Source of the DNA: Parcubacteria group bacterium ADurb.Bin247
GTDB taxonomy: Bacteria; Patescibacteriota; Minisyncoccia; Minisyncoccales; CSSED10-335
Reading direction: 5' to 3'
Assembly: GCA_002069755.1 (NCBI GenBank)
Contig: MWBX01000009.1
Span: 14,514 to 78,513 of the forward strand
Length of the DNA stretch: 64,000 bases
In this document: one piece after another, positions 5,835 through 64,000 of the stretch
Layout: each line of letters begins with the position of its first letter
How positions within the stretch are numbered: the first letter of the stretch is position 1
The notes under the pieces: model-generated
Seen by the model: only the letters and a program-made list of their open reading frames with translations
Told to the model about the DNA's origin: nothing
Databases searched by the model: none
Translations under genes and position numbers: made by a program

Positions 5835-8314
5835 TAATTAAAAGAGCAAGAGAGCATAATTTAAAAAATGTTTCTTTAGAGTTGCCAAGAAACAAAATGA
5901 TTGTTTTTACTGGATTATCAGGTTCGGGTAAGACAAGTCTTGCTTTTGATACTATTTTTGCCGAGGGTCAGAGAAGATATATTGAATCGTTGTCTACATA
6001 TGCTAGACAGTTTTTGGGTGGCATGCAAAGGCCTGATGTTGATGAGATTGAAGGATTATCTCCTGCCATATCAATTAATCAAAAAGCACATAGCGCTAAC
6101 CCACGATCAATCGTTGCTACTATTACTGAAATATATGATTACTTAAGGGTTTTGTATGCTCGAGTTGGTCAACCAAGTTGCCCTGTTTGTCATATTGAAA
6201 TTGAAAAGGTGAGTAGTGATGAAATATTCAAAAGAATTAAATCTAATATCTTTTCAGGTGGAGAAATAATGATTCTTGCTCCAGTTGTTCGTGGTCGTAA
6301 AGGGGAGTATTATCAACTACTTCAAGATATGTACGAAGGTGGTTTTAAAGAAGTTAGAATTGATGGCGAAATTAAAAATTTAAGCGAAAGAATAGTTATT
6401 AAAAAAGAAGTCAAGCATACTATTGAAATCATAATCGATCAAATTAAATTTAATAAAATGAATGATGATTTTGATTTTAGGTTAACCGAGGCAATAGAAA
6501 CTGCAATTGATATTTCTAATGGTCTCTGTCAGGTTATTTTTCCTAATCAAGAAGAGAAAATCTTTAACACAAAATATTCTTGTCCAAAGTGTGGTTTTAG
6601 TTTTCCCGAAATAGAGCCAAGATTATTCAGTTTTAATAGTCCTTATGGTTTTTGTTCTGATTGCAGTGGTTTGGGTGTAAAAAATATATATACTAACGAG
6701 ATATGTGATTCTTGTAATGGTAAAAGATTAAATGATAATGCTTTGAGTGTTATGGTTGGTGGTAAAAATATATGGGATGTTGTAAGCATGACTGTTGAAG
6801 AATGTTTAGCTTTTTTTAAAAAATTAGAAGTAACTAAAAAAGAACACGAAATTGCCGATGTAATTTTGAAAGAGATTTTGAATCGGTTAAGTTTTTTAAT
6901 GGATGTTGGTCTTCATTATGTAAGTTTAAACAGAGCTACGGGAACATTGTCTGGAGGGGAGGCTCAGAGAATAAGATTAGCTTCTCAAGTTGGGACCAAA
7001 CTTGTTGGTGCTCTTTATGTTTTAGATGAGCCAACTATTGGTTTACATCAAAAAGATAATGCAATGCTTGTAAAAACACTTAGAAATCTTTGTGATATTG
7101 GCAATACTATTATTATCGTTGAGCACGATGAAGACACAATACTTGCTAGTGATTGGGTGGTTGATTTTGGTCCTAGAGCAGGTAAACATGGTGGTAAAAT
7201 AATGTATTCGGGAGAATTAAAAGGACTATTGGATAACAAACCCAAAACAGAATCTCTTACTGGAAAATATTTGAGAAGAGAGCTTAAAATAGACTTACCT
7301 AAAGAAACTAGAAAGGTAGGCAAAAATCATCCTTCTATTGAAATTATTAAAGCTAGTGAAAATAACCTAAAAGACATAAATGTTAAGATTCCACTTAAAA
7401 GATTTATTTGTCTTACCGGGGTTTCAGGTTCAGGTAAATCTACTCTAATGAATAATGTGATGTATAACTATATCTCTGGTAAGATTAATCACTTTAAAAG
7501 AGATATTAAAGTTGAAGATATTAAAAATATTAACTTAATAGACAAAGTAATTAAAATAGATCAATCAGCAATTGGTCGTTCTTCTAGATCTAATCCCGCT
7601 ACATATACTAAAGCTTATGATGAGATAAGAAATATTTTTGCGGCAACTCCCGAAGCTAGAATGCGTGGCTACAAGTCGGGTAGATTTAGTTTCAATGTTT
7701 CTGGTGGTCGATGTGAGAATTGTGAAGGAAAGGGTTCGCTAGAAATAGAAATGCATTTTTTACCTAATGTTGAGGTTGTTTGTGATGTTTGTAAAGGTAA
7801 AAGATTTAATCAAGAAACATTGTCTATTCACTACAAAGGTAAGAATATAGCCGATGTTTTGGCTATGACAATAGACGAGGCTAATGTGTTTTTTAAAGAT
7901 ATCCCGCTAATTAACGACAAAATTAAGGTTTTAAGTGAGGTTGGTTTAGGGTATCTAACACTAGGACAACCAGCAATAACATTGTCGGGTGGAGAATCTC
8001 AAAGAGTTAAATTAAGTAAAGAGCTTAGTAAAAAAAGTACTGGCAAAACACTTTATCTTTTAGATGAGCCGACAACGGGACTTCATTATGACGATATTAA
8101 GAAATTAATTTTAATGATTCAAAAGCTTGTCTCAGCTGGCAATACTGTAATAGTAATAGAGCACAATCTAGATTTTATTAAATCAGCCGATTGGGTGATT
8201 GATCTTGGGCCAGATGGAGGTGATTTGGGTGGTCAATTAGTAGGCGAGGGGACACCAAAAGAAATCTCTCGTTTATCTAGTTGGACTGGAAAATATTTAA
8301 GAAAGATAATATGA
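5819..8314 (+). CDS. uvrA: excinuclease ABC subunit A (short, 831 aa)
   Basis: Two ABC ATPase modules (GLSGSGKTSL, GVSGSGKSTL), zinc-finger Cys pairs and LSGGE signatures. Overlaps the end of uvrB. Confidence 0.95.
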   Translation: MQEKIIIKRAREHNLKNVSLELPRNKMIVFTGLSGSGKTSLAFDTIFAEGQRRYIESLSTYARQFLGGMQRPDVDEIEGLSPAISINQKAHSANPRSIVATITEIYDYLRVLYARVGQPSCPVCHIEIEKVSSDEIFKRIKSNIFSGGEIMILAPVVRGRKGEYYQLLQDMYEGGFKEVRIDGEIKNLSERIVIKKEVKHTIEIIIDQIKFNKMNDDFDFRLTEAIETAIDISNGLCQVIFPNQEEKIFNTKYSCPKCGFSFPEIEPRLFSFNSPYGFCSDCSGLGVKNIYTNEICDSCNGKRLNDNALSVMVGGKNIWDVVSMTVEECLAFFKKLEVTKKEHEIADVILKEILNRLSFLMDVGLHYVSLNRATGTLSGGEAQRIRLASQVGTKLVGALYVLDEPTIGLHQKDNAMLVKTLRNLCDIGNTIIIVEHDEDTILASDWVVDFGPRAGKHGGKIMYSGELKGLLDNKPKTESLTGKYLRRELKIDLPKETRKVGKNHPSIEIIKASENNLKDINVKIPLKRFICLTGVSGSGKSTLMNNVMYNYISGKINHFKRDIKVEDIKNINLIDKVIKIDQSAIGRSSRSNPATYTKAYDEIRNIFAATPEARMRGYKSGRFSFNVSGGRCENCEGKGSLEIEMHFLPNVEVVCDVCKGKRFNQETLSIHYKGKNIADVLAMTIDEANVFFKDIPLINDKIKVLSEVGLGYLTLGQPAITLSGGESQRVKLSKELSKKSTGKTLYLLDEPTTGLHYDDIKKLILMIQKLVSAGNTVIVIEHNLDFIKSADWVIDLGPDGGDLGGQLVGEGTPKEISRLSSWTGKYLRKII

Positions 8315-9483
8315 AAAAATGGAGGGAAAATATATCTAAAATTCCTCAAAAAAGTGGAATTTATCTTTTCTACGAAAAAGGCAAACTTGTTTATGTTGGC
8401 AAGGCAACGTCTCTTAGGGTTCGCATTAAAAGCTATTTAAATCCAAAAACTAATAGACCAATAGAAGTATTAATTGATAAGATTGATGAGGTTAAGTGGA
8501 AAGTTACCGATTCTGTCCTAGAGGCAATTATTCTTGAGTCAAATTACATTAAAAAATTTAAGCCAAAATACAATGTAAAAGAAAAAGATGATAAGAGTTG
8601 GAGTTATCTTGTATTAACAAAAGATAATTTTCCAAAACTAGATGTTGTGAGGGAGAGAAACCTTGATTACAAAAAATACAAGTATGTTTTTGGACCCTAT
8701 GTTGGGGTTAAGATATCTGAGGTTTCTAAACTATTACATAAATTATTCTTTGTGTCTCGATGTAGTCCAGACAACAAGAGGGCTTGTTTTGATTATCAGA
8801 TTAATAGGTGTTTGGGTGTTTGCACGGGCGAAATAACAAAGAAACAATATAATGATTTAGTTATTCAACCTTTAGTATTATTCTTAAAAGGGAAGAAAAA
8901 AAGATTAATTAATCAGTTAGAGAAGAAAATGAGGCAAGTTTCTTTAGAAGAAAATTACGAAGAGGCTAAAAGACTAAGAAATCAGATAATTGTTTTAAGA
9001 AAAATTGTTGATTTTCCTTTAATCCTTTTTAAAAAAGAGGAAAAGATAGAAAAAAGAATAGAGGGTTATGACGTGTCTAATCTTGGAGATGAAATAATAG
9101 TAGGTTCTATGGTTGTTTTTATGGGCGCAAAACCAATTAAATCAGAATACAAAAAGTTTAGAGTAAAAAGAAAGGGTCAGAGCGATGTAGATTCTTTAAA
9201 AGAAATTATATCGAGAAGATTAAAACACAAAGAATGGAAACTACCAGATTTAGTTTCAGTAGATGGAGGAAAGCCCCAAGTAAACGCAATTAAATCGTTG
9301 TTTAGTATTGATGTAGTTGGTATTGCAAAAGGTAAAAAAAGGGATAAAAATAAAATAGTTTACTTTGGGAACGATAATTGGGTTTATGAGAATATGGATA
9401 TTTTAATTAGTGTCAGAGACGAGGCTCATAGATTTGCTATAAACTATCAAAGAAATTTAAAAATAAAAAAAACATTCAAATGA
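8311..9483 (+). CDS. uvrC: excinuclease ABC subunit C, lacking the C-terminal HhH domain
   Basis: GIY-YIG N-terminus (GIYLFYEKGKLVYVGKATSLRVR), UvrBC helix (RLRNQIIVLRKI) and RNase-H-like endonuclease region ending EAHRFAINYQ. The ATG at 8311 overlaps the uvrA stop (ATGA). The ORF tool's 8281 start is a TTG. Confidence 0.85.
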   Translation: MKKWRENISKIPQKSGIYLFYEKGKLVYVGKATSLRVRIKSYLNPKTNRPIEVLIDKIDEVKWKVTDSVLEAIILESNYIKKFKPKYNVKEKDDKSWSYLVLTKDNFPKLDVVRERNLDYKKYKYVFGPYVGVKISEVSKLLHKLFFVSRCSPDNKRACFDYQINRCLGVCTGEITKKQYNDLVIQPLVLFLKGKKKRLINQLEKKMRQVSLEENYEEAKRLRNQIIVLRKIVDFPLILFKKEEKIEKRIEGYDVSNLGDEIIVGSMVVFMGAKPIKSEYKKFRVKRKGQSDVDSLKEIISRRLKHKEWKLPDLVSVDGGKPQVNAIKSLFSIDVVGIAKGKKRDKNKIVYFGNDNWVYENMDILISVRDEAHRFAINYQRNLKIKKTFK

Positions 9484-54382: not shown

Positions 54383-56113
54383 TTACTTGATCTGAGATTG
54401 AATATTTTTAATAAAGTCCTCCTTAGATATTTTGTAAGTATTTTTACTTCCTCTCTCTCTAACATTTAATAATCCAGACTCCATTTCCTTGTCTCCTATA
54501 ACTAAAATATAGGGGACTTTTTCATTAACTGCCTTTCTTATCTTATTCCCTACAGTTTCACTGGCATCATCAACCTGAGGCCTAAAATCCATTTGTAAGA
54601 ACTCTTCTGACAATTTGTAACAATAGTCAATGTGATTGTCTGAGACGGATATAATTTTAATTTGAATAGGAGATAACCAAAAAGGAAAGGCTCCAGCATA
54701 ATGTTCAATTAAAATTGTGCAGAAACGCTCTAGAGAACCAAATATTGTGCGATGAATCATTATTGGAGTATGATCTTTTCCATCTTGACCAATATATGTC
54801 ATATTAAACTTAGATGGTAAATTCATATCTAGCTGAATTGTTGGACATTGCCACTCTCTACCAATAGCATCAAATATCTTAATATCTAGGGCTGGGCCAT
54901 AAAACTTAGCTCCGCCTTCTTCTAATTCGTACTCAATTCCTTTTTCAACTAATATTTCTTTAATAGTTGCCTCGGCAATATCCCAAACATCAGAATCACC
55001 AACATACTGGTCAAGATTTTTAGGATCCCTAGCAGCTAAATAATATTTAAACTTAGTAAAACCAAAATTAGAAAATACATTTAGAGTTAATTCTACCACT
55101 TTTCTATACTCGTCTTTGAACTGCTCTTTAGTACATATTATGTGAGCATCATCTTGAGTAAAACCCCTGGGTCTTGCAAGACCATGAAGCTCACCAGATT
55201 TCTCGTAACGATAGCAAGTACCTAACTCGTTCCACCTTATTGGCAAATCACGATAACTTCTTCTTCTAGATTTATATATTTCAACATGAAAAGGACAACT
55301 CATTGGCTTTACATAATATTCATCTTTTGTTTCTTTATCAGAAAATGGAGGAAACATAGAATCTTTAAAATATCCTAAATGACCCGATTCTTGCCAAAGC
55401 AAAGAACGACCAATATGTGGCGTATAGACATAATGATATCCATTTTGACGATGAACTTTTCTCCACCATGTTTCTAAAACTTCTCTTGTTTTAGAAAGAT
55501 TAGGATGCCAGAGTATAAGTCCCTGACCAACTTTATCACTAATACTAAATAAATCAAATTCTTTAGCTAATCTACGATGATCTCGAAGCTCGGCTTCTTT
55601 TAGAAGCTCAGTATATTCGTTTAAATCTTTTTCGGTTTCAAAAGCTAGAGCATATATTCTAGTAAGCATCTTGTTATTCTCATCTCCTCGCCAATATGCT
55701 CCAGCGATCTTGTTAAGTTTAAACGCTTTTACCTCACTCGAAGATTTAATATGCGGTCCTCGACATAAGTCTTCAAAATCTCCTGTTTTAAAATATGTAA
55801 CCTTTTGTGTTCCTTCAGATTTTAAATCTTCTAATAGCTCTACTTTGTAAATCTCACCTCTTTGTTTTTCTTTATCTATTGCCTTCAAGATATCTTCTTC
55901 ATACTTTTCAAATGGCAAATCTTGAGCAATAATACTCTTCATTTTCTTTTCAATCTTTGCAAAATCATTTTCATTAATAACAGTATCTCCAAAATCAAAG
56001 TCGTAGTAAAAACCATTGTCAATTGCTGGTCCGATAGCAAGCTTAACATTGGGCCAGATATCTTTTACTGCTGCTGCCATAATATGAGCGGCTGAGTGTC
56101 TTAATGTTTCCAT
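54383..56113 (-). CDS. thrS: threonyl-tRNA synthetase (no N-terminal TGS/editing extension)
   Basis: METLRHSAAHIMAAAV start, class II core motifs and anticodon-binding domain. 576 aa. Confidence 0.9.
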   Translation of the reverse strand: METLRHSAAHIMAAAVKDIWPNVKLAIGPAIDNGFYYDFDFGDTVINENDFAKIEKKMKSIIAQDLPFEKYEEDILKAIDKEKQRGEIYKVELLEDLKSEGTQKVTYFKTGDFEDLCRGPHIKSSSEVKAFKLNKIAGAYWRGDENNKMLTRIYALAFETEKDLNEYTELLKEAELRDHRRLAKEFDLFSISDKVGQGLILWHPNLSKTREVLETWWRKVHRQNGYHYVYTPHIGRSLLWQESGHLGYFKDSMFPPFSDKETKDEYYVKPMSCPFHVEIYKSRRRSYRDLPIRWNELGTCYRYEKSGELHGLARPRGFTQDDAHIICTKEQFKDEYRKVVELTLNVFSNFGFTKFKYYLAARDPKNLDQYVGDSDVWDIAEATIKEILVEKGIEYELEEGGAKFYGPALDIKIFDAIGREWQCPTIQLDMNLPSKFNMTYIGQDGKDHTPIMIHRTIFGSLERFCTILIEHYAGAFPFWLSPIQIKIISVSDNHIDYCYKLSEEFLQMDFRPQVDDASETVGNKIRKAVNEKVPYILVIGDKEMESGLLNVRERGSKNTYKISKEDFIKNIQSQIK

Positions 56114-56118
56114 ATTTT

Positions 56119-56973
56119 TTAAATTAGTTTAAAGTTATTAAATATATTGATAATTCCATCTTGATCCACGTCACCACCTATAAAATTATTCTTGTCTTTA
56201 TCAGATAAAACCAAATCTTTCAATTCTTTTTGACCATTTTGTAGTGTTGCTCGATAATCACACAACTCAATAAAAGACCAATCACCAAGACTATCTCCAA
56301 TACCAAGAGATTCACTAAAAGATACTCCGTAATAATTTGCCACTTTCTCACAAGCAGTTCTCTTAGAAACACTTTTCTTAGTAATTATAACAAATAGGGT
56401 ATTGGGAAGTATTGGATGAGTAGATGCCTCGTAATTAATATCACTAGACAATGATTTAAAATGGTTTAATATCTCTTCGGTATTGTCTACTTTTTCATAA
56501 GCCACAATTATTTTTACAATATCTTCCTTTTTCGACACCAAAGCCAAATCATCAACTAACACCGCACTTTGCTGATGATCATATTGTGCTTTTTGAGTAA
56601 TTTCAAAGCTTTGCTTTTTATCAAAAAAATAGTTGTCTTTAGAATAAAGACAGATATACTTCTTTTTTCCAAAACACTTATTAGATAATTCTTTAACAAT
56701 ATTTGAATCTATACTCTGAATATCTAATATCTTTCCATTAAGGTCTGCTATAACAGCACCACCATCGGCAATATGCATACCCGGAAGGTCTAGATTAGAT
56801 AATATCTTTTTAGTAGAAAACAATGGTTTGGCGGTACAAAGAGTAATGCCAACGCCACTTTCTTTGATACTTTTGATAGCCGAAGAAACGCTAGAGCTAG
56901 GAAAAGGAAAGTTCCTGTTCAAAATACCTCCTGTTATTACACCATCAATATCTGAAAATATGTGTTTGATCAT
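56119..56973 (-). CDS. HAD-superfamily hydrolase (Cof/IIB-like)
   Basis: N-terminal DxD (IFSDIDGVITGG) and C-terminal GIGDSLGD motifs. Internal ATG at 56973 chosen. A -10 TATTAT lies about 9 nt upstream. Confidence 0.65.
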   Translation of the reverse strand: MIKHIFSDIDGVITGGILNRNFPFPSSSVSSAIKSIKESGVGITLCTAKPLFSTKKILSNLDLPGMHIADGGAVIADLNGKILDIQSIDSNIVKELSNKCFGKKKYICLYSKDNYFFDKKQSFEITQKAQYDHQQSAVLVDDLALVSKKEDIVKIIVAYEKVDNTEEILNHFKSLSSDINYEASTHPILPNTLFVIITKKSVSKRTACEKVANYYGVSFSESLGIGDSLGDWSFIELCDYRATLQNGQKELKDLVLSDKDKNNFIGGDVDQDGIINIFNNFKLI

Positions 56974-57013
56974 AATGCAGATATAATACACTATTTTACT
57001 TAATTTTACTAGT

Positions 57014-57036
57014 TGACAAAACAATATATCTTGTCA
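57014..57036. promoter_or_regulatory. perfect inverted repeat TGACAA-N11-TTGTCA in divergent HAD/tyrS intergenic region
   Basis: tgacaaaacaatatatcttgtca. Candidate operator. Confidence 0.3.
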
Positions 57037-57196
57037 TAGTTGGAATAAAGGGTACAGAAATGAAAAAGGTTAATGTAGTTAGAAGTGATTTTCTTCATAT
57101 TACAACCGCGTTACAATAAAAAAGAAATGCATTGTATTTACCCCATTATTTTTATAACACCTAGTTTAAAAAATAAATTTGTGATAATATGCAATT

Positions 57197-58357
57197 ATGA
57201 AAAATGAAAAAGTCAAAGAGTTATTAACTAGGGGAGTTGACGAAATAATTGATAAAGCTAGCCTAGAAAAAAAACTAAAAAGTGGCAAGCCACTTAGAAT
57301 TAAGTTTGGTACCGACCCAACAAGTCCCAACATACACTTGGGTAGAACTATACCAATATTAAAATTAAGAGACTTTCAAGAATTGGGTCACAAAATTATA
57401 TTTATTGTCGGAGACTTTACTGGGTTAATTGGAGATACTTCAGACAAAGAAAGTGAACGACCAATGTTATCTGAACAAACAGTTAAAGAAAACCTAAAAA
57501 CATACATCAAACAAGCTGGGAAAATAATTGATATTGATAAAGCCGAAATACACTATAACAGCAAATGGCTCGGCAAGTTAAAATATATGGATATTGGCCG
57601 CCAAGCAAACTCGTTCTCTTTAAACGAATTCATTTCTCGAGAAAATATCAAACGAAGACTAGACAAAGGTAAGAGAGTTTCTCTAAGAGAGCTATTATAC
57701 CCACTAATGCAAGGATACGACTCAGTAGAAGTAAAAGCCGATGTTGAAATTGGAGGCACTGACCAACGCTTTAACTTGTTGGCTGGAAGAGATCTTCAAA
57801 GACTCTACGGTCAAGAACCTCAAGATATTATTACAAATCCTTTAATTGAAGGGCTAGATGGAAGAAAAATGAGCTCTAGCTTTAGAAATACTGTTAATCT
57901 ATTTGATACACCTAATGATATGTTTGGAAAAATAATGTCTTTGCAAGATAGTTTAATTATTAAATACTTTATACTCCTCACACGAATAGACTTAAAAGCA
58001 ATTAAAAAATACGAAAACTCAATTACTAATCCTCGTGATTTAAAAATGAAATTAGCTTTTGAAATTACTAAAATGTATCATTCAAAAAAAGATGCTGAAT
58101 TGGCCCAAGATTATTTTATTAAAACATTTTCTAAAAAAGAAATACCTAGTGAGGTTGAAAAGTTCAAACCCAGCAAATACGACATTGTATCCATATTAAT
58201 TGAATCTGGCCTAGTTCCTTCTAAATCAGAGGCTAGAAGAACAATTATTCAAGGAGGAGTAAAAGTTGATGGGATAGTTGTAAAAGATGTTTCTTGCAGT
58301 GTAGCTCGCAATTCAATTATTCAAAAGGGCAAAATTAAATTTATTAAAATAGTCTAG
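57197..58357 (+). CDS. tyrS: tyrosyl-tRNA synthetase (bacterial type with S4 domain)
   Basis: HIGH-like (PNIHLGR), KMSSS, and C-terminal S4 domain (SKSEARRTIIQGGVKVDG). Confidence 0.9.
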   Translation: MKNEKVKELLTRGVDEIIDKASLEKKLKSGKPLRIKFGTDPTSPNIHLGRTIPILKLRDFQELGHKIIFIVGDFTGLIGDTSDKESERPMLSEQTVKENLKTYIKQAGKIIDIDKAEIHYNSKWLGKLKYMDIGRQANSFSLNEFISRENIKRRLDKGKRVSLRELLYPLMQGYDSVEVKADVEIGGTDQRFNLLAGRDLQRLYGQEPQDIITNPLIEGLDGRKMSSSFRNTVNLFDTPNDMFGKIMSLQDSLIIKYFILLTRIDLKAIKKYENSITNPRDLKMKLAFEITKMYHSKKDAELAQDYFIKTFSKKEIPSEVEKFKPSKYDIVSILIESGLVPSKSEARRTIIQGGVKVDGIVVKDVSCSVARNSIIQKGKIKFIKIV

Positions 58358-58389
58358 CTTTTAAACAATATTTATTATATAATATCGGT

Positions 58390-59403
58390 ATGAATAAAAA
58401 ATTAGAATTAATTAAAGCAGAAGCTCTTAGAGAAATCGAATCTTCAAAAGACGAGAATTCTTTAAACAAGATATACAAAAAACATTTCAAAGAATTGTCT
58501 TCTATTTTCTCTCAAATGGGGACGCTAAGTCCAGAAGAAAAAAAAGTTATTGGCGTGAAAGCTAACGAAATCAAACAAGCAATTACCATTTCTTTTGAAA
58601 ACAAGAAAAAAAACTTTACAAAAAAAGATAAGACTAATTCTGAGTTTTTTGACATTACTATTCCTGGCAAAAAAACAAAAGTTGGTCATCTCCATCCAAT
58701 AACTCAAGCAATAAACGAAGCAGAAAACATATTTAGAGGTATGGGATTCTCAATAGTTGAAGGACCAGAGCTAGAAGATGAATGGCATAATTTTGATGCT
58801 CTCAATTTTCCAGAAGATCATCCAGCCAGAGAAATGCAAGATACCTTCTTTGTAAAAAATGAACCCAAGAAGAGATTATTAATGAGAACACACACATCTC
58901 CAGTACAAATTAGATATATGCTGGACAACAAACCACCTTATAGAATTATTGTTCCAGGAAGGGTTTTCAGAAACGAAGCAACCGATGCTAGCCATGAAGT
59001 AAACTTTCATCAGATAGAGGGATTAATGGTAGACAAAGAAATATCGGTTGCTAATTTTAAAGCTGTAATTGAAGAATTTTGTAGAGAATTTTTTAACCGA
59101 GATGTTAAGATAAGACTTAGACCATCTTTTTTCCCTTTTACCGAACCGTCTTTCGAAGTAGATATGAGTTGTTCTGAATGCAAGGGAAAGGGATGTTCAC
59201 TATGTTCTCAAACTGGATGGTTAGAAATATTAGGCGCCGGAATAGTTCACCCAAGTGTTTTTAAAAACAGTGGTGTTGACCCTAAAAAATGGCAAGGATT
59301 TGCCTTTGGTCTTGGTTGGGATCGATGGGTTATGCTAAAATACAAGATCAACGACATTAGGCTCTTCTATAATGGAGATTTAAGATTTTTAAATCAATTT
59401 TAA
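58390..59403 (+). CDS. pheS: phenylalanyl-tRNA synthetase alpha subunit
   Basis: Class II motifs (FRNEATDASHEVNFHQIEG, GAGIVHP, GFAFGLGWDR). Confidence 0.9.
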   Translation: MNKKLELIKAEALREIESSKDENSLNKIYKKHFKELSSIFSQMGTLSPEEKKVIGVKANEIKQAITISFENKKKNFTKKDKTNSEFFDITIPGKKTKVGHLHPITQAINEAENIFRGMGFSIVEGPELEDEWHNFDALNFPEDHPAREMQDTFFVKNEPKKRLLMRTHTSPVQIRYMLDNKPPYRIIVPGRVFRNEATDASHEVNFHQIEGLMVDKEISVANFKAVIEEFCREFFNRDVKIRLRPSFFPFTEPSFEVDMSCSECKGKGCSLCSQTGWLEILGAGIVHPSVFKNSGVDPKKWQGFAFGLGWDRWVMLKYKINDIRLFYNGDLRFLNQF

Positions 59404-59405
59404 TT

Positions 59406-61355
59406 ATGAAATTTTCATACAACTGGTTACAATCAATTATAATAAAGAAACTTCCAAATCCAAAAGATTTGGCAGATATAATTACCATAAGATTCTTTGA
59501 AGTAGAAAGTGTAGAAAAGCTAAAAGATGATTGGATTATTGATATAGATGTTTTGCCAAACAGAGCCGGAGATTGCTTGTCACACATTGGAGTTGCAAAA
59601 GAAATTGCAATTATACTTAACAGCAAAATCAGAAAAGAAGCCTTAAAGTTAAGAGAAGTGTCTAGAAATGCTAAAGACCTTGTATCTGTAGAAGTATTAG
59701 ACTCTCTTAATTGCAATCGCTACACTGCTCGAGTAATGATAAATATTAGCGTGGCTGAGTCTCCAAAATGGATTAAAGAAAGACTAGAATCGTGTGGAAT
59801 TCAATCAATTAATAATGTGGTAGACATTGCTAATTATGTAATGCTTGAAATGGGTCAACCATTACATATTTTTGATTTAGACAAATTATCAAATAAAGAA
59901 ATAGTTGTAAGAATGAGTAAGGCTGGAGAAAAGATTACTACTCTGGACAACAATAATTTTGTTTTAAACAAAAACATCCTATTAATCACAGATAACAAAG
60001 ACCCGCTAGCAATTGCCGGAATCAAGGGAGGTAAAAAAGCAGAGATAGATTTAAAAACTAAAAACATAGTTATAGAATCGGCTAATTTCAATAGGACAAG
60101 TATTAGGAAAGCTTCAGCTCAATTAAAACTTAGAACCGATGCATCTCTAAGATTTGAGCACGGACTAGACCCCAATATGACCAATATCGCAATAGATCGA
60201 ACTGCACAAATGATACAAGAAATTTGCTCAGGACAAATTGCCAAAGGAATCATAGATATTTATCCTAACAAAAACAAACCTAAAAAGATTGACCTAAATT
60301 TGACAAAAGTTCAAAAAGTTTTAGGGATAACTATTAAGGCAGATAAAATTAAAAAGATAATCAATGATCTAGATTTAAAGATAATATCTTCTAAAAAAGA
60401 CAATCTTTTAATTGAGGTTCCAACTATAAGGCAAGATATTACAATTGCCGAAGATATTATAGAGGAAATTGGAAGAATTTTAGGATACGATAAAATAAAA
60501 TCCGAATTACCATCGCTACCCATAACACTACCCATAAAAAACAAAGATTTCTTTTGGAAAAACGAAATTAAAGAATTGTTGAAATCTGCTGGTCTTACTG
60601 AAGTATACAATTCTAGCTTTCTAAGCCAAGAACAATTCGAAACTTTTAAATATGTTGATTTAATAGAAATAGAAAAACCAGCAACAATTGATCAACAATA
60701 CTTAAAACCATCACTAATACCTAATTTAATTAAGAATATAGAATTTAATAGCAAATTCTTTGAAGAAATAGAAATATTTGAAATTGGCAGTGTTTTTTCT
60801 AAATCTAGAGAAGAAGAACATTTTGCAGTAGCCCTTAAAAACAAAACATTCTTTGACGCAAAATCAATATTAGAACTAGTAGCGGGTAGAATGAATTTAG
60901 AATTATCTTTTAAGTTAACAGAGAATAATTTATTTGATAATTCGGCTGAAGTATTTCTAGGATCTGAAAAGATTGGAATATTGGGATACAATTCAAATTT
61001 ATCAATATTTGAAGTAAACTTTGACAAAATGAAAAAACTAGCGGTTAACAAAAAGCAGTATTGTCCCATACCAAAGTTCCCCGAATCTAGTCGAGACTTA
61101 GCTATAATCGTTCCTAAAGAAATCACTTACGAAAACATTGTTAATGAGATCAAAAAAGCAAACATACAATTGTTAGAAGATATTTCCCTTTTTGATATTT
61201 ATTCTGACGATAAACTTCCAAAAGAAAGTAAAAGTATGGCATTGAGATTAATTTATCGTGCAAATAGAACTCTAACCAGTGAAGAAGTTAATGAGATGCA
61301 TAGTAAAATTATTAAACACATTGAAAAAAACAACAATTGGATCGTAAGAAAATAA
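59406..61355 (+). CDS. pheT: phenylalanyl-tRNA synthetase beta subunit (reduced, 649 aa)
   Basis: B3/B4, B5 and catalytic-like domains plus C-terminal FDX-ACB-like domain. No N-terminal tRNA-binding domain. Confidence 0.85.
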   Translation: MKFSYNWLQSIIIKKLPNPKDLADIITIRFFEVESVEKLKDDWIIDIDVLPNRAGDCLSHIGVAKEIAIILNSKIRKEALKLREVSRNAKDLVSVEVLDSLNCNRYTARVMINISVAESPKWIKERLESCGIQSINNVVDIANYVMLEMGQPLHIFDLDKLSNKEIVVRMSKAGEKITTLDNNNFVLNKNILLITDNKDPLAIAGIKGGKKAEIDLKTKNIVIESANFNRTSIRKASAQLKLRTDASLRFEHGLDPNMTNIAIDRTAQMIQEICSGQIAKGIIDIYPNKNKPKKIDLNLTKVQKVLGITIKADKIKKIINDLDLKIISSKKDNLLIEVPTIRQDITIAEDIIEEIGRILGYDKIKSELPSLPITLPIKNKDFFWKNEIKELLKSAGLTEVYNSSFLSQEQFETFKYVDLIEIEKPATIDQQYLKPSLIPNLIKNIEFNSKFFEEIEIFEIGSVFSKSREEEHFAVALKNKTFFDAKSILELVAGRMNLELSFKLTENNLFDNSAEVFLGSEKIGILGYNSNLSIFEVNFDKMKKLAVNKKQYCPIPKFPESSRDLAIIVPKEITYENIVNEIKKANIQLLEDISLFDIYSDDKLPKESKSMALRLIYRANRTLTSEEVNEMHSKIIKHIEKNNNWIVRK

Positions 61356-61356
61356 T

Positions 61357-62604
61357 ATGAGAATAACAAAACTATTTAGTAAAACTAGGAAAGACAGCCC
61401 TAAAGATGAAACTAGTAAAAATGCACAGCTTTTAATAAAATCAGGCTACATCCACAAAGAATTAGCTGGAGTCTATACCTATCTTCCTCTAGGCCTTAGA
61501 GTGATTAATAAAATATCAAATATCATCAGAGAAGAAATGGATAATGCCGGTGGTCAAGAAATATTGATGACTGTTCTACAAGATAAAAATATTTGGGAAA
61601 AGTCAAAACGTTGGGACGATAATGCAGTTGATGATTGGTTTAAAACAAGACTTAAAAACAATACAGAATTGGGTCTTGGATTTACTCATGAAGAACCATT
61701 GGTCAACTTAATGAAAAACCATATTAGCTCATACAAAGACTTACCAATATACCCATACCAAATACAAACAAAATTTCGTAATGAATTAAGGGCTAAGTCT
61801 GGAATAATGAGAGGAAGAGAGTTCTTAATGAAAGATATGTATTCATTTTCTAAAAACAAAGAAGAGCATAATTTATTTTACGAAAAAATGAAAGAGGTCT
61901 ATATGAGCATATTTAATCAATTGGGACTAGGGGACAAAACATACACTACAATATCTTCTGGTGGATCTTTTTCAAAATATTCTTATGAATTTCAAACAGT
62001 ATCCGATGCTGGAGAAGATATAATATATATTATAGACCAAGAGAAAAAATTGGCTATCAATGAAGATGATTTTAACGAAGAAACTCTCAAAGATTTTGGA
62101 TTAAACTTAAACAAGGAGACTCTCCGATCAGAAAAATCAATTGAAGTAGGGGATATATATAGTTTGGGCTACAGATATTCTAAAGCACTGAACTTAAAAT
62201 ATACTAACGAAAAAGGATTAGATGAATTTGTATATATGGGCTGTTATGGAATTGGAATATCAAGATTAATGGGAGCAATTGTAGAATTAAATAGCGATGA
62301 TAAAGGGCTTGTTTGGCCTAGAGAAGTATCTCCATTTGATATTCACCTGATATCTCTTTCTAAAACAGAAGACTATGCTAATAAAATATATGATGAGTTG
62401 GTTAAAAGAGGCTTTTCGGTATTGTTTGACGATCGCCAAGACACAACAACTGGAGTAAAGTTTAACGATGCTGACTTAATAGGAATTCCAAAACAAATAA
62501 TTATTGGAGAAAAAAGAATAAAAAATAACGAAGTAGAAATAAAAGATAGAAAAACTCAAGAAATTAAAATTATTTCAGTTGATTCTTTATACGATTTATT
62601 GTAA
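61357..62604 (+). CDS. proS: prolyl-tRNA synthetase, bacterial type without INS editing domain
   Basis: MRITKLFSKTRKD...LLIKSGYIHKELAGVYTYLPLGLRVINKISNIIREEM matches the ProRS N-terminus. Class II motifs present. 415 aa. Confidence 0.85.
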   Translation: MRITKLFSKTRKDSPKDETSKNAQLLIKSGYIHKELAGVYTYLPLGLRVINKISNIIREEMDNAGGQEILMTVLQDKNIWEKSKRWDDNAVDDWFKTRLKNNTELGLGFTHEEPLVNLMKNHISSYKDLPIYPYQIQTKFRNELRAKSGIMRGREFLMKDMYSFSKNKEEHNLFYEKMKEVYMSIFNQLGLGDKTYTTISSGGSFSKYSYEFQTVSDAGEDIIYIIDQEKKLAINEDDFNEETLKDFGLNLNKETLRSEKSIEVGDIYSLGYRYSKALNLKYTNEKGLDEFVYMGCYGIGISRLMGAIVELNSDDKGLVWPREVSPFDIHLISLSKTEDYANKIYDELVKRGFSVLFDDRQDTTTGVKFNDADLIGIPKQIIIGEKRIKNNEVEIKDRKTQEIKIISVDSLYDLL

Positions 62605-62607
62605 AAT
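62572..62607. repeat. direct repeat copy 1 (3' end of proS)
   Basis: atttcagttgattctttatacgatttattgtaaaat. Identical, apart from a 1-nt indel, to 63926-63962. Confidence 0.9.
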
Positions 62608-62612
62608 CAAGA

Positions 62613-63476
62613 ATGGATATAAAGCCAATCAAAATAAGACTCAAAATAACCGGTAAATGCAATAAGTCTTGCTTCTTTTGTCATAAAGAAGGAGGAGATA
62701 ATATAGATGATTTTTTGCTGGATGATGATTTTATTAATTGTATGAATGAATTTGAAAAAATAGGGATAAAAAATGTCATTTTGACAGGCGGAGAACCTAC
62801 ATTATGCCCAGACTTCGAAAAAATATGTCAATACCTTTCTAAAAAATTCCATGTTACTGTCGTAACAAACGGATCAATAGTAAAAGATTGGAGTAAAATA
62901 CAGGTAAATAAAATAACAATAAGTATCCATTCACTAAACCCAGAAAAAATGATAAAATTAGAAAACATTAAAAGAACAAAAAGTTGGGCAAAAAAAGAAA
63001 TAGAAAAAATTAAAATAAACATTACAAATATAATTAATTCTAAAAAGGAAGCAAGAATAAACCTCGTTGTGACTGACAGGGAAAGCCTAAAAGAAGCAGA
63101 AAATCTTTCCCATACCGGAATAGAGGTAAGGCTACTTAACAACCTTAATGATATAAAAAATAGTCAAAAAATAATTAATAATTTTATAAAGGAAAAGAAG
63201 GCCACGAAAAGATATGAGTATAGAAGAATGTCTAACCATACAGCTTATTATGATGGTGAGTTAAAGTTTTCTACTAAAATATCTTATCCTTTCTATTTTG
63301 ATGCTATCTGTAAGGATTGCAGTTTTAAAAAAAAATGTTACGAAGGATTTTACGGACTAAGACTAGAAAAAAGAGGGGGCTACTATGTTCGACTCTGTTT
63401 ATATAAAAATCTAATCTATCCATATAAGGATTTCTTAAAATCAAGAATGAAAAACGATTTCTTAAAATTATGCTAG
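62613..63476 (+). CDS. MoaA/viperin-like radical SAM enzyme (GTP 3',8-cyclase fold family)
   Basis: IRLKITGKCNKSCFFCHKEGG aligns with the MoaA LRISxTDxCNxRCxYCxPxxG motif. GGEP and TNGS follow. C-terminal CKDC...GLRLEKRGGYYVRLCLY aligns with the MoaA second-cluster CxxC...RLRVSSTGDLKLCLF. Confidence 0.65.
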   Translation: MDIKPIKIRLKITGKCNKSCFFCHKEGGDNIDDFLLDDDFINCMNEFEKIGIKNVILTGGEPTLCPDFEKICQYLSKKFHVTVVTNGSIVKDWSKIQVNKITISIHSLNPEKMIKLENIKRTKSWAKKEIEKIKINITNIINSKKEARINLVVTDRESLKEAENLSHTGIEVRLLNNLNDIKNSQKIINNFIKEKKATKRYEYRRMSNHTAYYDGELKFSTKISYPFYFDAICKDCSFKKKCYEGFYGLRLEKRGGYYVRLCLYKNLIYPYKDFLKSRMKNDFLKLC

Positions 63477-63937
63477 AACAAGAATTGCGATACAAGATAA
63501 CAAAAGAGAAAGCTCAAGAAATAATATCCAAAAAAAACTTCTCAAAACCTCAAAAACAGACAGACACATATTATGAGGGATATTTCGAAGGAATTTTCAG
63601 AATAAGAGAGTCTAATAGTCAATATTTTTGTCACAAATATTTTAAAGGCGATAGTTGGGAAGAGTGGGAAGTAGAAGTTCCACTTAAGACTGCTATGGAG
63701 TTGAAGAAAGCTTTAGAGAGTCAAAAAACAATAAATATTATTAAAATTAGGCAAAAATTTTATGATAATGGCATTGAAATAAATATCGATGAAATAGAGG
63801 GCCTTGGAATATTTTGCGAAATAGAGATGGTTGGGAAAACAAAGAAAGACATTAGAGCTATTGCAAAAAAAATGAATCTAGAAGGAGAAATAAAAGAAGG
63901 TTATGTCCAATTAATGAAAAGGGAGATTTCCAGTTGA
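63470..63937 (+). CDS. CYTH-domain protein (CyaB/thiamine-triphosphatase-like triphosphate tunnel metalloenzyme)
   Basis: N-terminal EQELR (ExExK-like), RIR, and paired acidic strands EWEVEV and FCEIEMV. 155 aa. The stop codon lies inside repeat copy 2. Confidence 0.6.
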   Translation: MLEQELRYKITKEKAQEIISKKNFSKPQKQTDTYYEGYFEGIFRIRESNSQYFCHKYFKGDSWEEWEVEVPLKTAMELKKALESQKTINIIKIRQKFYDNGIEINIDEIEGLGIFCEIEMVGKTKKDIRAIAKKMNLEGEIKEGYVQLMKREISS

Positions 63938-63962
63938 TTCTTTATACGATTTATTGTAAAAT
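63926..63962. repeat. direct repeat copy 2
   Basis: atttccagttgattctttatacgatttattgtaaaat, immediately followed by the serS start. Confidence 0.9.
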
Positions 63963-64000
63963 ATGAATATGTTAGATATAAAATTCATAAAAGAAAACGC
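63963..64000 (+). CDS. serS: seryl-tRNA synthetase, N-terminal fragment at window edge
   Basis: M-N-MLDIKFIKEN... matches the canonical SerRS N-terminus MLDxKxIRENP. Only 12 codons are visible. Confidence 0.45.
   Translation, partial: MNMLDIKFIKEN

What the first reader, a model, noticed from the sequence alone, without database searches (positions are those of the whole stretch)
62613..63937. MoaA/viperin-like radical SAM enzyme coupled to a CYTH triphosphate-tunnel protein: candidate nucleotide-triphosphate-modifying module
The radical SAM protein matches MoaA at both diagnostic regions: the N-terminal CNxxCxFC cluster with flanking R-I/L-x-I-T and GG, and the C-terminal RL..xxGxxxxLCLY auxiliary-cluster segment. 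The MoaA/viperin clade acts on NTPs (GTP cyclisation, ddhCTP formation). There is no other molybdopterin biosynthesis gene (moaC, moeA, mogA) in the window, and the genome appears streamlined, so a Moco role is unlikely. The partner CYTH domain (ExExK-like, RIR and paired ExE strands) is a triphosphate-binding or cleaving fold (class IV cyclase / triphosphatase). An NTP-radical-chemistry enzyme paired with a triphosphate-tunnel enzyme in a mobile 2-gene cassette is not a described system to my knowledge. It could make or process a modified nucleotide, either an antiviral chain-terminator-like product (viperin logic) or a signalling nucleotide.
Basis: partly seen in the sequence, partly recalled or inferred. 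Interest (0 to 1): 0.8.

Follow-up and report, generated by a model that had tools for sequence, protein, structure and literature searches.

The report
Radical SAM–CYTH nucleotide-tailoring gene pair
A tiny two-gene insert in a candidate-phyla-radiation bacterium encodes a MoaA-like radical enzyme and a triphosphate-cleaving partner. The same pair recurs, sometimes fused into one protein, in several bacterial phyla, and it most likely makes an unusual modified nucleotide or nucleoside that nobody has yet described.

Summary

The pairing is not chance. A CYTH gene flanks the rSAM in 22 of 24 species-level genome loci, covering Patescibacteria, actinomycetes and MAGs labelled Gammaproteobacteria. 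It also does so on a Bacillus cereus plasmid and, with gene order inverted, in Streptomyces. In four actinomycete species the two are fused into one ORF.

Accessory genes vary by lineage:
- adenylate-kinase-like plus GreA-like (Patescibacteria);
- NUDIX (actinomycetes);
- ATP-grasp ligases plus an MFS exporter (Bacillus).

The window holds no Moco genes. A 35-nt duplication of the proS 3' end brackets the cassette, but no empty site was found. No paper or curated family covers the pair.

Best reading: an NTP-modifying rSAM coupled to a triphosphate hydrolase that makes a nucleoside or nucleotide antimetabolite. This is a new variant of the viperin, OxsAB and ThmABC logic.

The parts
62573..62607 (+). 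Left copy of the 35-nt direct repeat. It is the last 10 codons and stop codon of proS plus 3 nt, and it contains a TTGATT-17-TAAAAT promoter-like match.
   Evidence: The 32-nt exact core occurs only twice in the window.
62613..63476 (+). Radical SAM enzyme, 287 aa, of a MoaA-related clade. Features: a CX3CX2C cluster at C16/C20/C23 within CNKSCFFCHKEGG, GGEP at 59-62, and four invariant C-terminal Cys (C233, C236, C242, C262) in C-x2-C-x5-C-x-EGFYG-x-R...RLC.
63470..63937 (+). CYTH / triphosphate-tunnel metalloenzyme, 155 aa. Features: ExExR at residues 3-7, RxR at 44-46, K56, ExE at 65-67, R94, D107, ExE at 117-119, and no N-terminal HF motif. Its start overlaps the rSAM stop by 7 nt, and its stop codon (TGA) lies inside the right repeat.
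63928..63962 (+). Right copy of the 35-nt direct repeat (34/35 identical). It ends 6 nt before the serS start codon.
61357..62604 (+). proS (prolyl-tRNA synthetase), the upstream flank. Its 3' end is the duplicated segment.
63969..64000 (+). Start of serS (seryl-tRNA synthetase), the downstream flank, cut by the end of the window.
   Evidence: serS follows the CYTH gene in L013-L018.

Best explanation
The two genes form a self-contained nucleotide-tailoring core.

Proposed mechanism:
1. The radical SAM protein is a twitch-type relative of MoaA with a second, four-Cys Fe-S site. It binds a nucleoside triphosphate and uses the 5'-deoxyadenosyl radical to alter its ribose or base. This step is inferred.
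2. The CYTH protein is a two-metal triphosphate-tunnel phosphohydrolase, not a cyclase. It acts on the triphosphate tail of that substrate or product, or on triphosphate released from it. This either matures and releases the compound or protects the producer. This step is also inferred.
3. The end product is most likely a nucleoside or nucleotide antimetabolite used in conflict, either antiviral inside the cell or exported against competitors.

In this Parcubacteria genome the pair is the minimal version. It was inserted between proS and serS and is probably co-transcribed with the aminoacyl-tRNA synthetase cluster.

Shown here: the fold and family assignments, intact catalytic residues, conserved linkage and fusion of the two genes, the accessory gene sets, and the absence of a Moco context.

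Inferred: the substrate class, the order of the two reactions, and the biological role.
For: 1. Closest relatives act on nucleotides or nucleosides.
- Family profile against PDB sequences: MoaA 84 bits (E 9e-23), AbmM 62 bits, viperin-like enzymes about 58 bits.
- NCBIfam: the best hit is moaA_archaeal; viperin_w_prok is the fourth hit, behind three MoaA models.

2. Some MoaA triphosphate-binding positions are kept.
- MoaA R17 aligns to the invariant R9.
- MoaA R192 aligns to R173. An Arg is kept there in every CYTH-linked member, but it is A, V or Y in the DUF4062- and PPDK-linked clade, which has no CYTH partner.

3. The CYTH residues for metal and triphosphate binding are invariant across 15 partner proteins. 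The HF motif is absent and RxR is kept, which marks a phosphohydrolase by the criteria of PMC8233210.

4. Linkage of the two genes.
- A CYTH gene is adjacent to the rSAM in 22 of 24 species-level genome loci.
- It is also adjacent in L001 and L007, on a B. cereus plasmid, and in S. bobili with the order inverted.
- The two are a single ORF in L031, L036, L037 and L039.

5. The accessory genes all relate to nucleotides.
- An adenylate-kinase-like gene lies directly upstream in L019-L023.
- A NUDIX gene is present in the actinomycete loci.
- One family representative is an rSAM-AAA_18 kinase fusion.

6. There are hints of conflict or secondary metabolism.
- GreA-like genes and GreA-like fusions occur in the family.
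- The B. cereus cluster adds an L-amino-acid ligase and an MFS exporter.
- Sister-clade rSAMs sit with a DUF4062 NADase on ICEs and with ThsA_Macro.
- The actinomycete loci have a GC content of 0.61-0.70, which I judge, from my own knowledge of these genera and not measured here, to be below the usual genome average.

7. A precedent exists for the logic. ThmA (rSAM), ThmB (kinase) and ThmC (NTPase, self-resistance) make 4'-thiothymidine (PMC12691670).
Against: - No biochemical data exist for any member.
- Two MoaA triphosphate ligands (K69, R71) are N54 and I56 in the window protein. Close relatives do have Arg at the first of these positions.
- With four conserved Cys the auxiliary cluster may be fully ligated, unlike MoaA, where the open Fe binds guanine.
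- The C-terminal domain on its own has no significant sequence match to any solved structure.
- A triphosphatase would destroy a viperin-type chain terminator, so the antiviral version needs extra assumptions.
- The window cassette lacks the kinase and Gre-like genes of its relatives, sits in a housekeeping operon, and shows no compositional anomaly.
- No relatives were found in phage collections, so there is no arms-race signal.
- Neither protein reaches a PADLOC defence model beyond a partial pVip hit.
Confidence: 0.55

Rival explanations
1. Second-messenger synthase. The rSAM modifies an NTP and the CYTH protein acts as a class IV-type cyclase, producing a non-canonical cyclic nucleotide signal.
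For: - The CYTH fold includes class IV adenylate cyclases, and cyaB TIGR00318 is the only NCBIfam hit.
- NCBI names the actinomycete partners 'class IV adenylate cyclase'.
- Foldseek hits include YpAC-IV.
Against: - The score is below the cyaB cutoff (37.1 against 57.95).
- There is no room for the HF motif, because only two residues precede ExExR.
- The central Arg of RxR is kept, whereas cyclases replace it (PMC8233210).
- The closest structures are the non-cyclase SaTTM and Pyrococcus CYTH proteins.
- No receptor or effector gene lies in the cassette or is conserved beside the pair.
Confidence: 0.12
2. Alternative pterin or Moco-type cofactor pathway. The rSAM performs a MoaA-like GTP 3',8-cyclisation, and the CYTH protein replaces MoaC in eliminating pyrophosphate and forming the cyclic phosphate.
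- The 'FCHxEG' motif is shared with archaeal-type MoaA (P0163).
- From established Moco biochemistry (my own knowledge), the MoaC step releases PPi and forms a cyclic phosphate. That is chemistry a tunnel metalloenzyme could in principle perform.
Against: - All three MoaA equivalog cutoffs are failed by a wide margin.
- There is no Mob_synth_C domain and no C-terminal Gly-Gly.
- No Moco genes lie in 64 kb.
- The accessory genes (kinase, Gre-like, NUDIX, ATP-grasp ligases, MFS) are not cofactor-pathway genes.
- Distribution is patchy and island-like.
- The CYTH protein is of the hydrolase type.
Confidence: 0.08
3. RNA-directed system. The CYTH protein acts as an RNA 5'-triphosphatase (Cet1-like) and the rSAM modifies the 5'-terminal nucleotide or nascent RNA, with the Gre-like factor docking the system on RNA polymerase.
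For: - Gre-like genes or fusions recur with the family.
- NUDIX partners resemble RNA pyrophosphohydrolases at low score.
- The CYTH superfamily includes RNA triphosphatases (PMC8233210).
Against: - The rSAM's nearest relatives act on free nucleotides or nucleosides.
- An adenylate-kinase-like partner argues for a mononucleotide substrate.
- The window pair has no Gre-like gene.
- No RNA-binding domain was detected.
Confidence: 0.07
4. Decaying hitch-hiker. The cassette is a non-functional remnant of a larger system and has no role in this genome.
For: - The window version is the shortest of the family (287 aa against 303-320 aa).
- It lacks the kinase and Gre-like genes.
- No integrase lies nearby.
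Against: - All family-invariant residues of both proteins are intact.
- The proteins are 99-100% identical across many samples and assemblies.
- The genes are tightly packed and overlap, with no frameshifts.
Confidence: 0.03

Closest known systems
MoaA (GTP 3',8-cyclase, Moco biosynthesis; PDB 1TV7/1TV8/2FB3)
- Both have a partial TIM barrel followed by a C-terminal Cys-rich (twitch-like) extension.
- The LRIxVTxxCN...C motif is shared, and the FCHxEG variant is shared with archaeal MoaA.
- Arg equivalents of MoaA R17 and R192 are present.
   Different: - Scores are about a quarter to a third of the equivalog cutoffs.
- No Mob_synth_C domain is detected.
- The C-terminal motif is C-x2-C-x5-C-x-EGFYG-x-R...C with four invariant Cys, rather than C-x2-C-x13-C.
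- There is no Gly-Gly tail.
- MoaA K69 and R71 are not conserved in the window protein.
- The partner is a CYTH protein, not MoaC, and there is no Moco context.
Viperin / prokaryotic viperins (pVip), ddhNTP synthases
- There is a partial PADLOC pVip hit (61.9 bits, N-terminal half only).
- Relatives sit next to a nucleotide kinase, as many pVips do.
- An NTP substrate is plausible.
   Different: - The score is below the NF038283 cutoff (55.7 against 180).
- Viperin has no auxiliary Fe-S site.
- The viperin C-terminal NTP-binding extension is not matched.
- The obligate partner here is a triphosphatase, which pVip systems lack.
ThmABC 4'-thiothymidine cluster of Photorhabdus (PMC12691670)
   Same: - It is a three-gene logic of rSAM + nucleoside/nucleotide kinase + nucleoside triphosphatase.
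- It is a minimal, horizontally scattered cluster.
- The NTPase confers self-resistance.
   Different: - Homology of ThmA and ThmC to the proteins here could not be tested.
- The paper does not say that ThmC is a CYTH protein.
- ThmB is an AbmG-like nucleoside kinase, not an adenylate-kinase-like protein.
- The window has no kinase.
OxsB/OxsA oxetanocin-A pair of Bacillus megaterium (own knowledge: Bridwell-Rabb et al. 2016 PNAS and 2017 Nature; not checked here)
   Same: It is a two-gene, plasmid-borne module in which a radical SAM enzyme remodels the sugar of a (deoxy)adenine nucleotide. A dedicated phosphohydrolase then strips the phosphates to give an antiviral or antibacterial nucleoside.
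   Different: OxsB is a cobalamin-dependent rSAM and OxsA is an HD-domain hydrolase. Both belong to unrelated families.
AbmM (albomycin thiosugar rSAM; PDB 8WM2)
   Same: - It shares FCHNEG after the CX3CX2C motif.
- It has a C-terminal C-x2-C-x5-C...LRL...R-x-C pattern resembling the four-Cys tail (seen in the alignment).
- It acts on a cytidine nucleotide and uses its Fe-S cluster as sulfur donor (as summarised in PMC12691670).
   Different: - The C-terminal resemblance is not statistically significant (domain score -2.4 bits; no hit).
- AbmM lacks the EGFYG motif.
- No CYTH partner is known in the albomycin cluster.
SaTTM and Pyrococcus CYTH proteins (archaeal triphosphate tunnel metalloenzymes; PDB 7NS8-7NSF, 1YEM, 2EEN)
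   Same: - They are the best sequence and fold matches of the CYTH protein (TM about 0.69; 24-26% identity).
- They share the ExExK-type motif, RxR and two ExE pairs.
- They have no HF motif.
   Different: SaTTM sits in an operon with a SAM hydrolase and NMNAT, not with a radical SAM enzyme. The substrate of the window protein is unknown.

Membership tests
MoaA (GTP 3',8-cyclase) | Whole-protein score at or above the curated equivalog cutoffs (TIGR02668, TIGR02666, NF001199) | tested here: not met
   Scores against cutoffs were 92.7 / 325.25, 66.8 / 284.05 and 77 / 231. The same shortfall is seen for relatives from L021 and L028 and for P0004.
MoaA (GTP 3',8-cyclase) | Mob_synth_C (PF06463) C-terminal domain with the C-x2-C-x13-C auxiliary cluster motif | tested here: not met
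   Pfam finds only Radical_SAM. The tail is C233-x2-C236-x5-C242-x19-C262 with EGFYG. A true MoaA-like representative, P0163, has CLGCNRLRLTPDG...C instead.
MoaA (GTP 3',8-cyclase) | N-terminal CX3CX2C radical SAM cluster and MoaA-like fold | tested here: met
MoaA (GTP 3',8-cyclase) | Conserved GTP triphosphate and base ligands (S. aureus R17, K69, R71, K163, R192, R266, R268; residue list from my own knowledge of Hänzelmann and Schindelin) | tested here: inconclusive
   From the alignment, R17 maps to R9, K163 to R148 and R192 to R173, all kept. K69 and R71 map to N54 and I56 and are lost in the window protein. The R266/R268 region cannot be aligned unambiguously.
MoaA (GTP 3',8-cyclase) | C-terminal double-glycine tail (own knowledge) | tested here: not met
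   The protein ends ...NDFLKLC. No relative ends in GG.
MoaA (GTP 3',8-cyclase) | Genomic co-occurrence with moaC, moaB/mogA, moeA and moaD/E | tested here: not met
   None of these Pfam families appears in the gene tables covering the 64-kb window. The rest of the genome was not examined.
Viperin / pVip | Score at or above the NF038283 cutoff, or a full-length PADLOC pVip match | tested here: not met
   The NF038283 score is 55.7 against a cutoff of 180. The PADLOC pVip hit is 61.9 bits but covers only residues 8-158.
Viperin / pVip | Single Fe-S cluster with no auxiliary Cys motif | tested here: not met
   Four invariant C-terminal Cys are present.
CYTH / triphosphate tunnel metalloenzyme superfamily | PF01928 at or above the gathering score, and an eight-stranded tunnel fold | tested here: met
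   The Pfam score is 44.6 against 23.2. The AF2 model matches 1yem, 7nsd and 2een at TM 0.67-0.69.
CYTH / triphosphate tunnel metalloenzyme superfamily | ExExK, RxR and ExE metal- and triphosphate-binding motifs | tested here: met
   The window protein has E3-x-E5-x-R7 (Lys replaced by Arg; the actinomycete partners have Lys), R44-x-R46, E65-x-E67 and E117-x-E119. These are invariant or nearly so in 15 partner proteins.
Class IV adenylate cyclase (CyaB / AC-IV) | HFxxxxExExK extension and loss of the central Arg (PMC8233210); score at or above the TIGR00318 cutoff | tested here: not met
   Only M1 and L2 precede the ExExR motif. RxR is retained. The TIGR00318 score is 37.1 against a cutoff of 57.95.
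Thiamine-triphosphatase-type CYTH | W/YxRxR ring-stacking motif (PMC8233210) | tested here: not met
   The window protein has I42-F43-R44-I45-R46. The motif WxRxR is present in the partners from L001, L019 and all actinomycetes.
Site-specifically integrated mobile cassette | Flanking direct repeats that duplicate the target | tested here: met
   A 35-nt repeat (34/35 identical) of the proS 3' end flanks the pair.
Site-specifically integrated mobile cassette | A recombinase, an empty site, or alternative cargo at the same site in the population | tested here: not met
   - No integrase lies in or beside the cassette.
- The empty-junction pattern gave 0 hits in metagenome contigs.
- All contigs carrying the proS end carry the cassette.

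The most novel reading that the evidence does not exclude
The rSAM-CYTH pair is the core of a previously unrecognised, phylum-spanning family of nucleotide-derived transcription poisons.

- The MoaA-like enzyme converts a purine NTP into an analogue that stalls RNA polymerases.
- The tunnel triphosphatase controls or detoxifies the active triphosphate form, or clears released triphosphate.
- The dedicated Gre-like factor found in Patescibacteria loci rescues the producer's own RNA polymerase.

This would be a viperin-like immunity or antibiotic principle with a built-in antidote, and it would be present even in ultra-small CPR genomes.
Probability: 0.25. Interest if true: 0.85.

Novelty: new variant of a known kind. 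Interest (0 to 1): 0.7.

Why it matters
Small rSAM-centred modules that remodel nucleotides (viperin, OxsB/OxsA, ThmABC, AbmM) have each yielded new antiviral or antibacterial nucleoside chemistry. This pair defines another such module.

- Its rSAM clade is uncharacterised and has a distinctive four-Cys tail.
- Its obligate partner is a triphosphate-tunnel enzyme, a fold whose physiological substrates are mostly unknown.
- It occurs in cultivable organisms (Nocardiopsis, Actinopolyspora, Streptomyces bobili, Bacillus cereus CF4-51), so the chemistry can be tested directly.
- The natural fusion proteins offer a ready-made construct for that work.
- It would give one of the few functional handles on accessory metabolism or immunity in Parcubacteria.
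- The recurring Gre-like partner hints at a link to RNA polymerase that has no precedent in known nucleotide-analogue systems.

Tried and rejected
- **Bona fide MoaA.** Rejected on cutoffs, domain content, tail motif and context.
- **pVip membership.** Rejected on cutoff, partial coverage and the presence of auxiliary Cys.
- **Cyclase reading of the CYTH protein.** Disfavoured by the HF and RxR criteria.
- **C-terminal domain profile against PDB.** No significant hit, so the AbmM-like Cys pattern remains only a lead.
- **Phage origin.** No relatives were found in IMG/VR or INPHARED.
- **Empty-site or alternative-cargo search in metagenomes.** Only occupied sites were found.
- **Compositional anomaly of the cassette.** None.
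- **Repeat-flanked cassette structure at the other loci (L001, L007).** Not found.
- **Literature searches.** The term combinations below turned up nothing describing the pair:
  - radical SAM with CYTH, triphosphate tunnel, class IV adenylate cyclase, GreA with anti-phage, DUF4062, or adenylate kinase with defense system;
  - CYTH with viperin;
  - MoaA-like with defense and phage.
- **AbmM primary papers.** These could not be read.
- **One window protein (8281-9483).** Not on record in the contig index.
- **Promoter inside the repeat.** This is a consensus match at chance frequency for this AT-rich region and was not pursued.
Full report
**1. Observation**

The rSAM gene runs 62613-63476 (+) and encodes 287 aa. 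The CYTH gene runs 63470-63937 (+) and encodes 155 aa. The CYTH start lies 7 nt before the rSAM stop.

Pfam gives Radical_SAM at 65.3 bits and CYTH at 44.6 bits, against a gathering score of 23.2 for CYTH. The quoted motifs are present (IRLKITGKCNKSCFFCHKEGG, TGGEP, GLRLEKRGGYYVRLCLY).

The pair is bracketed by a 35-nt direct repeat (34/35 identical) at 62573-62607 and 63928-63962.
- The left copy is the last ten codons and the stop codon of proS.
- The right copy supplies the TGA stop of the CYTH gene, read in a different frame, and ends 6 nt before serS.
- The 32-nt exact core occurs only at these two places in the window, with 0 expected by chance.

The CYTH protein is 100% identical to a protein that NCBI names from 'Parcubacteria group bacterium ADurb.Bin247'. 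The same arrangement, thrS / tyrS-pheS-pheT-proS-[rSAM-CYTH]-serS…cysS-aspS, is seen in eight independent digester or sludge assemblies.

Gene tables for near-identical contigs that cover the whole window show only housekeeping genes typical of the candidate phyla radiation (CPR). They contain no MoaC, MoeA, MogA or MoaD/E family.

**2. The radical SAM protein**

No curated family claims it. The best NCBIfam hits are MoaA models at a quarter to a third of their cutoffs: 92.7 against 325, 77 against 231 and 66.8 against 284. viperin_w_prok scores 55.7 against a cutoff of 180. PADLOC's pVip model matches only the N-terminal half.

The word-indexed search of 5.8 billion proteins found only 17 relatives. 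An exhaustive profile search of 1.84 billion cluster representatives gave 129 hits at E ≤ 1e-30, within a continuum that runs out to archaeal-type MoaA.

Family signatures:
- LRIKxTGxCNxxCxFCHxEG. The FCHxEG part is shared with archaeal-type MoaA such as P0163.
- GGEP and TTNG.
- A C-terminal C-x2-C-x(3-8)-C-x-EG[FY]YG-x-R…R-x-C motif with four invariant cysteines (C233, C236, C242, C262 in the window protein). MoaA has C-x2-C-N-R-x-R…C instead.

Mapping the MoaA GTP ligands through the alignment (the residue list is my own knowledge):
- R17 corresponds to the invariant R9.
- K163 corresponds to R148.
- R192 corresponds to R173.
- K69 and R71 correspond to N54 and I56 in the window protein. 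Close relatives have Arg at the first of these two positions.

The protein is therefore MoaA-related but is not MoaA. It also has no Mob_synth_C domain, no Gly-Gly tail and no Moco context.

**3. The CYTH protein**

Its sequence relatives among solved structures are archaeal CYTH proteins and the Sulfolobus triphosphatase SaTTM. The AF2 model (pLDDT 83.3) matches 1yem, 7nsd and 2een at TM about 0.69, ahead of the class IV cyclases.

Across 15 rSAM-linked CYTH partners, the metal- and triphosphate-binding residues are invariant or nearly so: E5, K56, E65, E67, R94, D107, E117, E119, R44 and R46.

Vogt et al. (PMC8233210) give criteria for telling cyclases from hydrolases. True class IV cyclases have HFxxxxExExK and lose the central arginine. 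ThTPases have W/YxRxR. In the window protein only Met-Leu precede ExExR and RxR is intact, so it is a hydrolase-type TTM. A second subgroup of partners (L001, L019 and all actinomycetes) carries WxRxR. That is the ring-stacking motif, which suggests an organic triphosphate substrate.

**4. Linkage of the two genes**

- The two closest metagenomic relatives of the rSAM (45% and 39% identity) are also followed by a CYTH gene.
- A scan of one genome per GTDB species returned 24 family-level loci. My HMM scan finds a CYTH gene adjacent in 22 of them. These are Patescibacteria (L019, L022), MAGs labelled Gammaproteobacteria (L021, L023), and 18 actinomycetes (Nocardiopsis, Actinopolyspora, Murinocardiopsis, Salinactinospora, Lipingzhangella).
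- In most Nocardiopsis the rSAM stop overlaps the CYTH start (ATGA).
- In one Nocardiopsis and three Actinopolyspora species the frame runs through, giving a single rSAM-CYTH protein. Pfam confirms both domains in that protein.
- In Streptomyces bobili the order is inverted (CYTH then rSAM). That rSAM is 54% identical to the Nocardiopsis rSAM and sits among the same neighbours.
- A Bacillus cereus megaplasmid carries an annotated 'radical SAM protein' and 'CYTH domain-containing protein' that overlap by 4 nt.

An NJ tree places the CYTH-linked rSAMs in two distant clades of the family, so the association is old or has been repeatedly selected. Not every CYTH protein of the actinomycete subgroup has an rSAM neighbour. 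Risungbinella is an example.

**5. Accessory genes**

- **Patescibacteria-type loci.** These form a four-gene module: a GreA/GreB-C-like protein of about 160 aa with a conserved [GS]AMQSxxDT tip motif, an adenylate-kinase-like protein directly upstream of the rSAM, the rSAM itself, and the CYTH gene. L020 has the kinase and the Gre-like gene but no CYTH gene.
- **Fusions among family representatives.** rSAM-GreA_C (P0058, P0157), rSAM-AAA_18 kinase (P0139) and SorC sugar-binding-rSAM (P0046) all occur.
- **Actinomycetes.** A NUDIX hydrolase and a divergently transcribed HTH/TPR regulator are conserved next to the pair. They lie in regions with a GC content of 0.61-0.70, with WhiJ-type HTH_31/DUF5753, DUF397 and HATPase_c_2 genes nearby.
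- **B. cereus.** The operon reads ATP-grasp, rSAM, CYTH, a 405-aa unknown protein, an L-amino-acid ligase and an MFS transporter. It lies beside a cyclodipeptide synthase cluster and an integrase, and it looks like a biosynthetic gene cluster.
- **A Firmicutes sister clade lacks a CYTH partner.**
  - On ICEs it pairs with a DUF4062 protein, next to ArdA, ParB, a coupling protein and an integrase. 2026 preprints describe DUF4062 as a TIR-like antiphage NADase and do not mention an rSAM partner.
  - Elsewhere it sits in a CTP_transf_like, 616-aa protein, rSAM, PPDK_N, ThsA_Macro operon.
  - In this clade the Arg equivalent to MoaA R192 is replaced by A, V or Y, whereas every CYTH-linked member keeps it. 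That co-variation fits a triphosphate substrate specifically in the CYTH-linked enzymes. This is an inference.

**6. Interpretation**

The evidence points to a two-enzyme core that remodels a nucleoside triphosphate by radical chemistry and processes its triphosphate by hydrolysis. Some lineages add a kinase that would supply substrate. Others add tailoring and export genes, or a possible polymerase-protecting factor.

Precedents for the logic:
- pVips with kinases.
- OxsB/OxsA (from my own knowledge, not checked here).
- ThmABC, in which an rSAM, a nucleoside kinase and an NTPase make 4'-thiothymidine and the NTPase gives self-resistance (PMC12691670).

Which reaction comes first is unknown. 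So is whether the CYTH protein matures the product, detoxifies it, or removes released triphosphate. Whether the role is antiviral or antibacterial is also unknown. I put 0.55 on the general model.

Rivals and why they rank lower:
- A cyclic-nucleotide synthase is disfavoured by the CYTH motifs.
- A MoaC-replacing cofactor route is disfavoured by context and by the failed membership tests.
- An RNA 5'-end system is disfavoured by the kinase partner and by the rSAM's nearest relatives.
- A dead remnant is disfavoured by the intact, highly conserved sequences.

**7. Mobility**

The 35-nt duplication of the proS end is the footprint expected from insertion of a roughly 1.3-kb segment at that point, for example single-crossover integration of a circle that carried the proS end. 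This is an inference.
- There is no recombinase gene.
- There is no compositional anomaly.
- An exact-match search for the empty junction found nothing. All contigs carrying this proS end carry the insert.
- Related pairs sit in unrelated genomic contexts and lack such repeats.

The module therefore moves on evolutionary time scales. In this species it appears fixed and is probably co-transcribed with the aminoacyl-tRNA synthetase genes.

**8. Novelty**

No paper in the searchable library links a radical SAM enzyme with a CYTH/TTM protein. No NCBIfam or PADLOC model covers the rSAM clade or the pair. The general logic is known. The enzyme clade, the tunnel-enzyme partner, the natural fusions and the Gre-like association are not. 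I rate it a new variant of a known kind, with interest 0.7.

Noticed in passing
window 62579-62607 and 63934-63962: The duplicated 35-nt segment contains a sigma-70-like TTGATT-17-TAAAAT match in both copies. The duplication may therefore have preserved a promoter or leader for both the inserted pair and serS. Such matches occur at chance frequency in this AT-rich region.
   Followed up: partly
window 63426-63479; also 62602-62615 and 63436-63449: The 3' end of the rSAM gene holds a 27-nt imperfect tandem duplication (74% identical; it encodes KDFLKSRMK / NDFLKLC) that runs into the CYTH start. In addition, the 14-mer TAAAATCAAGAATG at the proS/rSAM junction recurs inside the rSAM 3' end. A TAAAAT-N(1-6)-ATG pattern precedes the rSAM, CYTH and serS starts.
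   Followed up: no
window 1139-2659 (+): This is a second, unrelated radical SAM gene of 506 aa. It carries Zn_ribbon_HMPTM plus Radical_SAM domains and scores 42 bits against the family HMM.
   Followed up: no
window 54383-64000 and L013 1-15504: There is an unusually dense aminoacyl-tRNA synthetase cluster: thrS (minus strand), then tyrS, pheS, pheT, proS, [insert], serS, followed by cysS and an aspS/asnS-type gene a few genes further on. The insert sits directly upstream of serS. AbmM, a distant relative of the rSAM, belongs to the pathway of the seryl-tRNA synthetase inhibitor albomycin. This is probably a coincidence.
   Followed up: no
L002-L006, 4580-6942: A 472-aa DUF4062 protein is followed immediately by a family rSAM (P0004, 30% identical to the window protein). 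It lies on gut-Firmicutes integrative conjugative elements beside ArdA, ParB, a T4SS coupling protein and an integrase. This may be an undescribed rSAM-containing variant of the DUF4062 NADase defence systems reported in 2026 preprints.
   Followed up: partly
L009-L012 and L024 (e.g. L009 1501-10392): A conserved operon reads HTH, CTP_transf_like, a 616-aa unknown protein (weak PADLOC PDC-S60 hit), family rSAM, PPDK_N/PEP-utilizer, ThsA-type Macro domain, a 339-aa unknown protein and an ATP-grasp protein. It lies near integrase and transposase genes. It looks like another nucleotide-centred system built around the same rSAM family.
   Followed up: partly
L082 (B. cereus CF4-51 plasmid p2, NZ_CP063160.1, 149179-155743): The rSAM-CYTH pair is embedded between two ATP-grasp ligases (one an L-amino-acid ligase with LAL_C2), a 405-aa protein with a weak class II aaRS-core match, and an MFS transporter. 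It lies next to a cyclodipeptide synthase/P450 cluster. This is a candidate gene cluster for a peptidyl-nucleoside.
   Followed up: partly
L001 6120-6999 and 4145-5944: Three copies of a palindromic 30-nt element (TCTGGTTTCTCACGATCGTGAGAAACCAGA) lie in intergenic DNA. Nearby is a 599-aa secreted-looking protein with 147-nt tandem Cys-rich repeats and a C-terminal Hint domain. Both are downstream of the rSAM-CYTH-Gre-like trio.
   Followed up: no
L042-L075: About 30 Eubacteriales and Oscillospiraceae MAGs carry rSAM genes of about 275 aa that share the CN[RK]xCxFCH motif but score only 40-60 bits against the family HMM. None has an adjacent CYTH gene. Their context was not examined.
   Followed up: no
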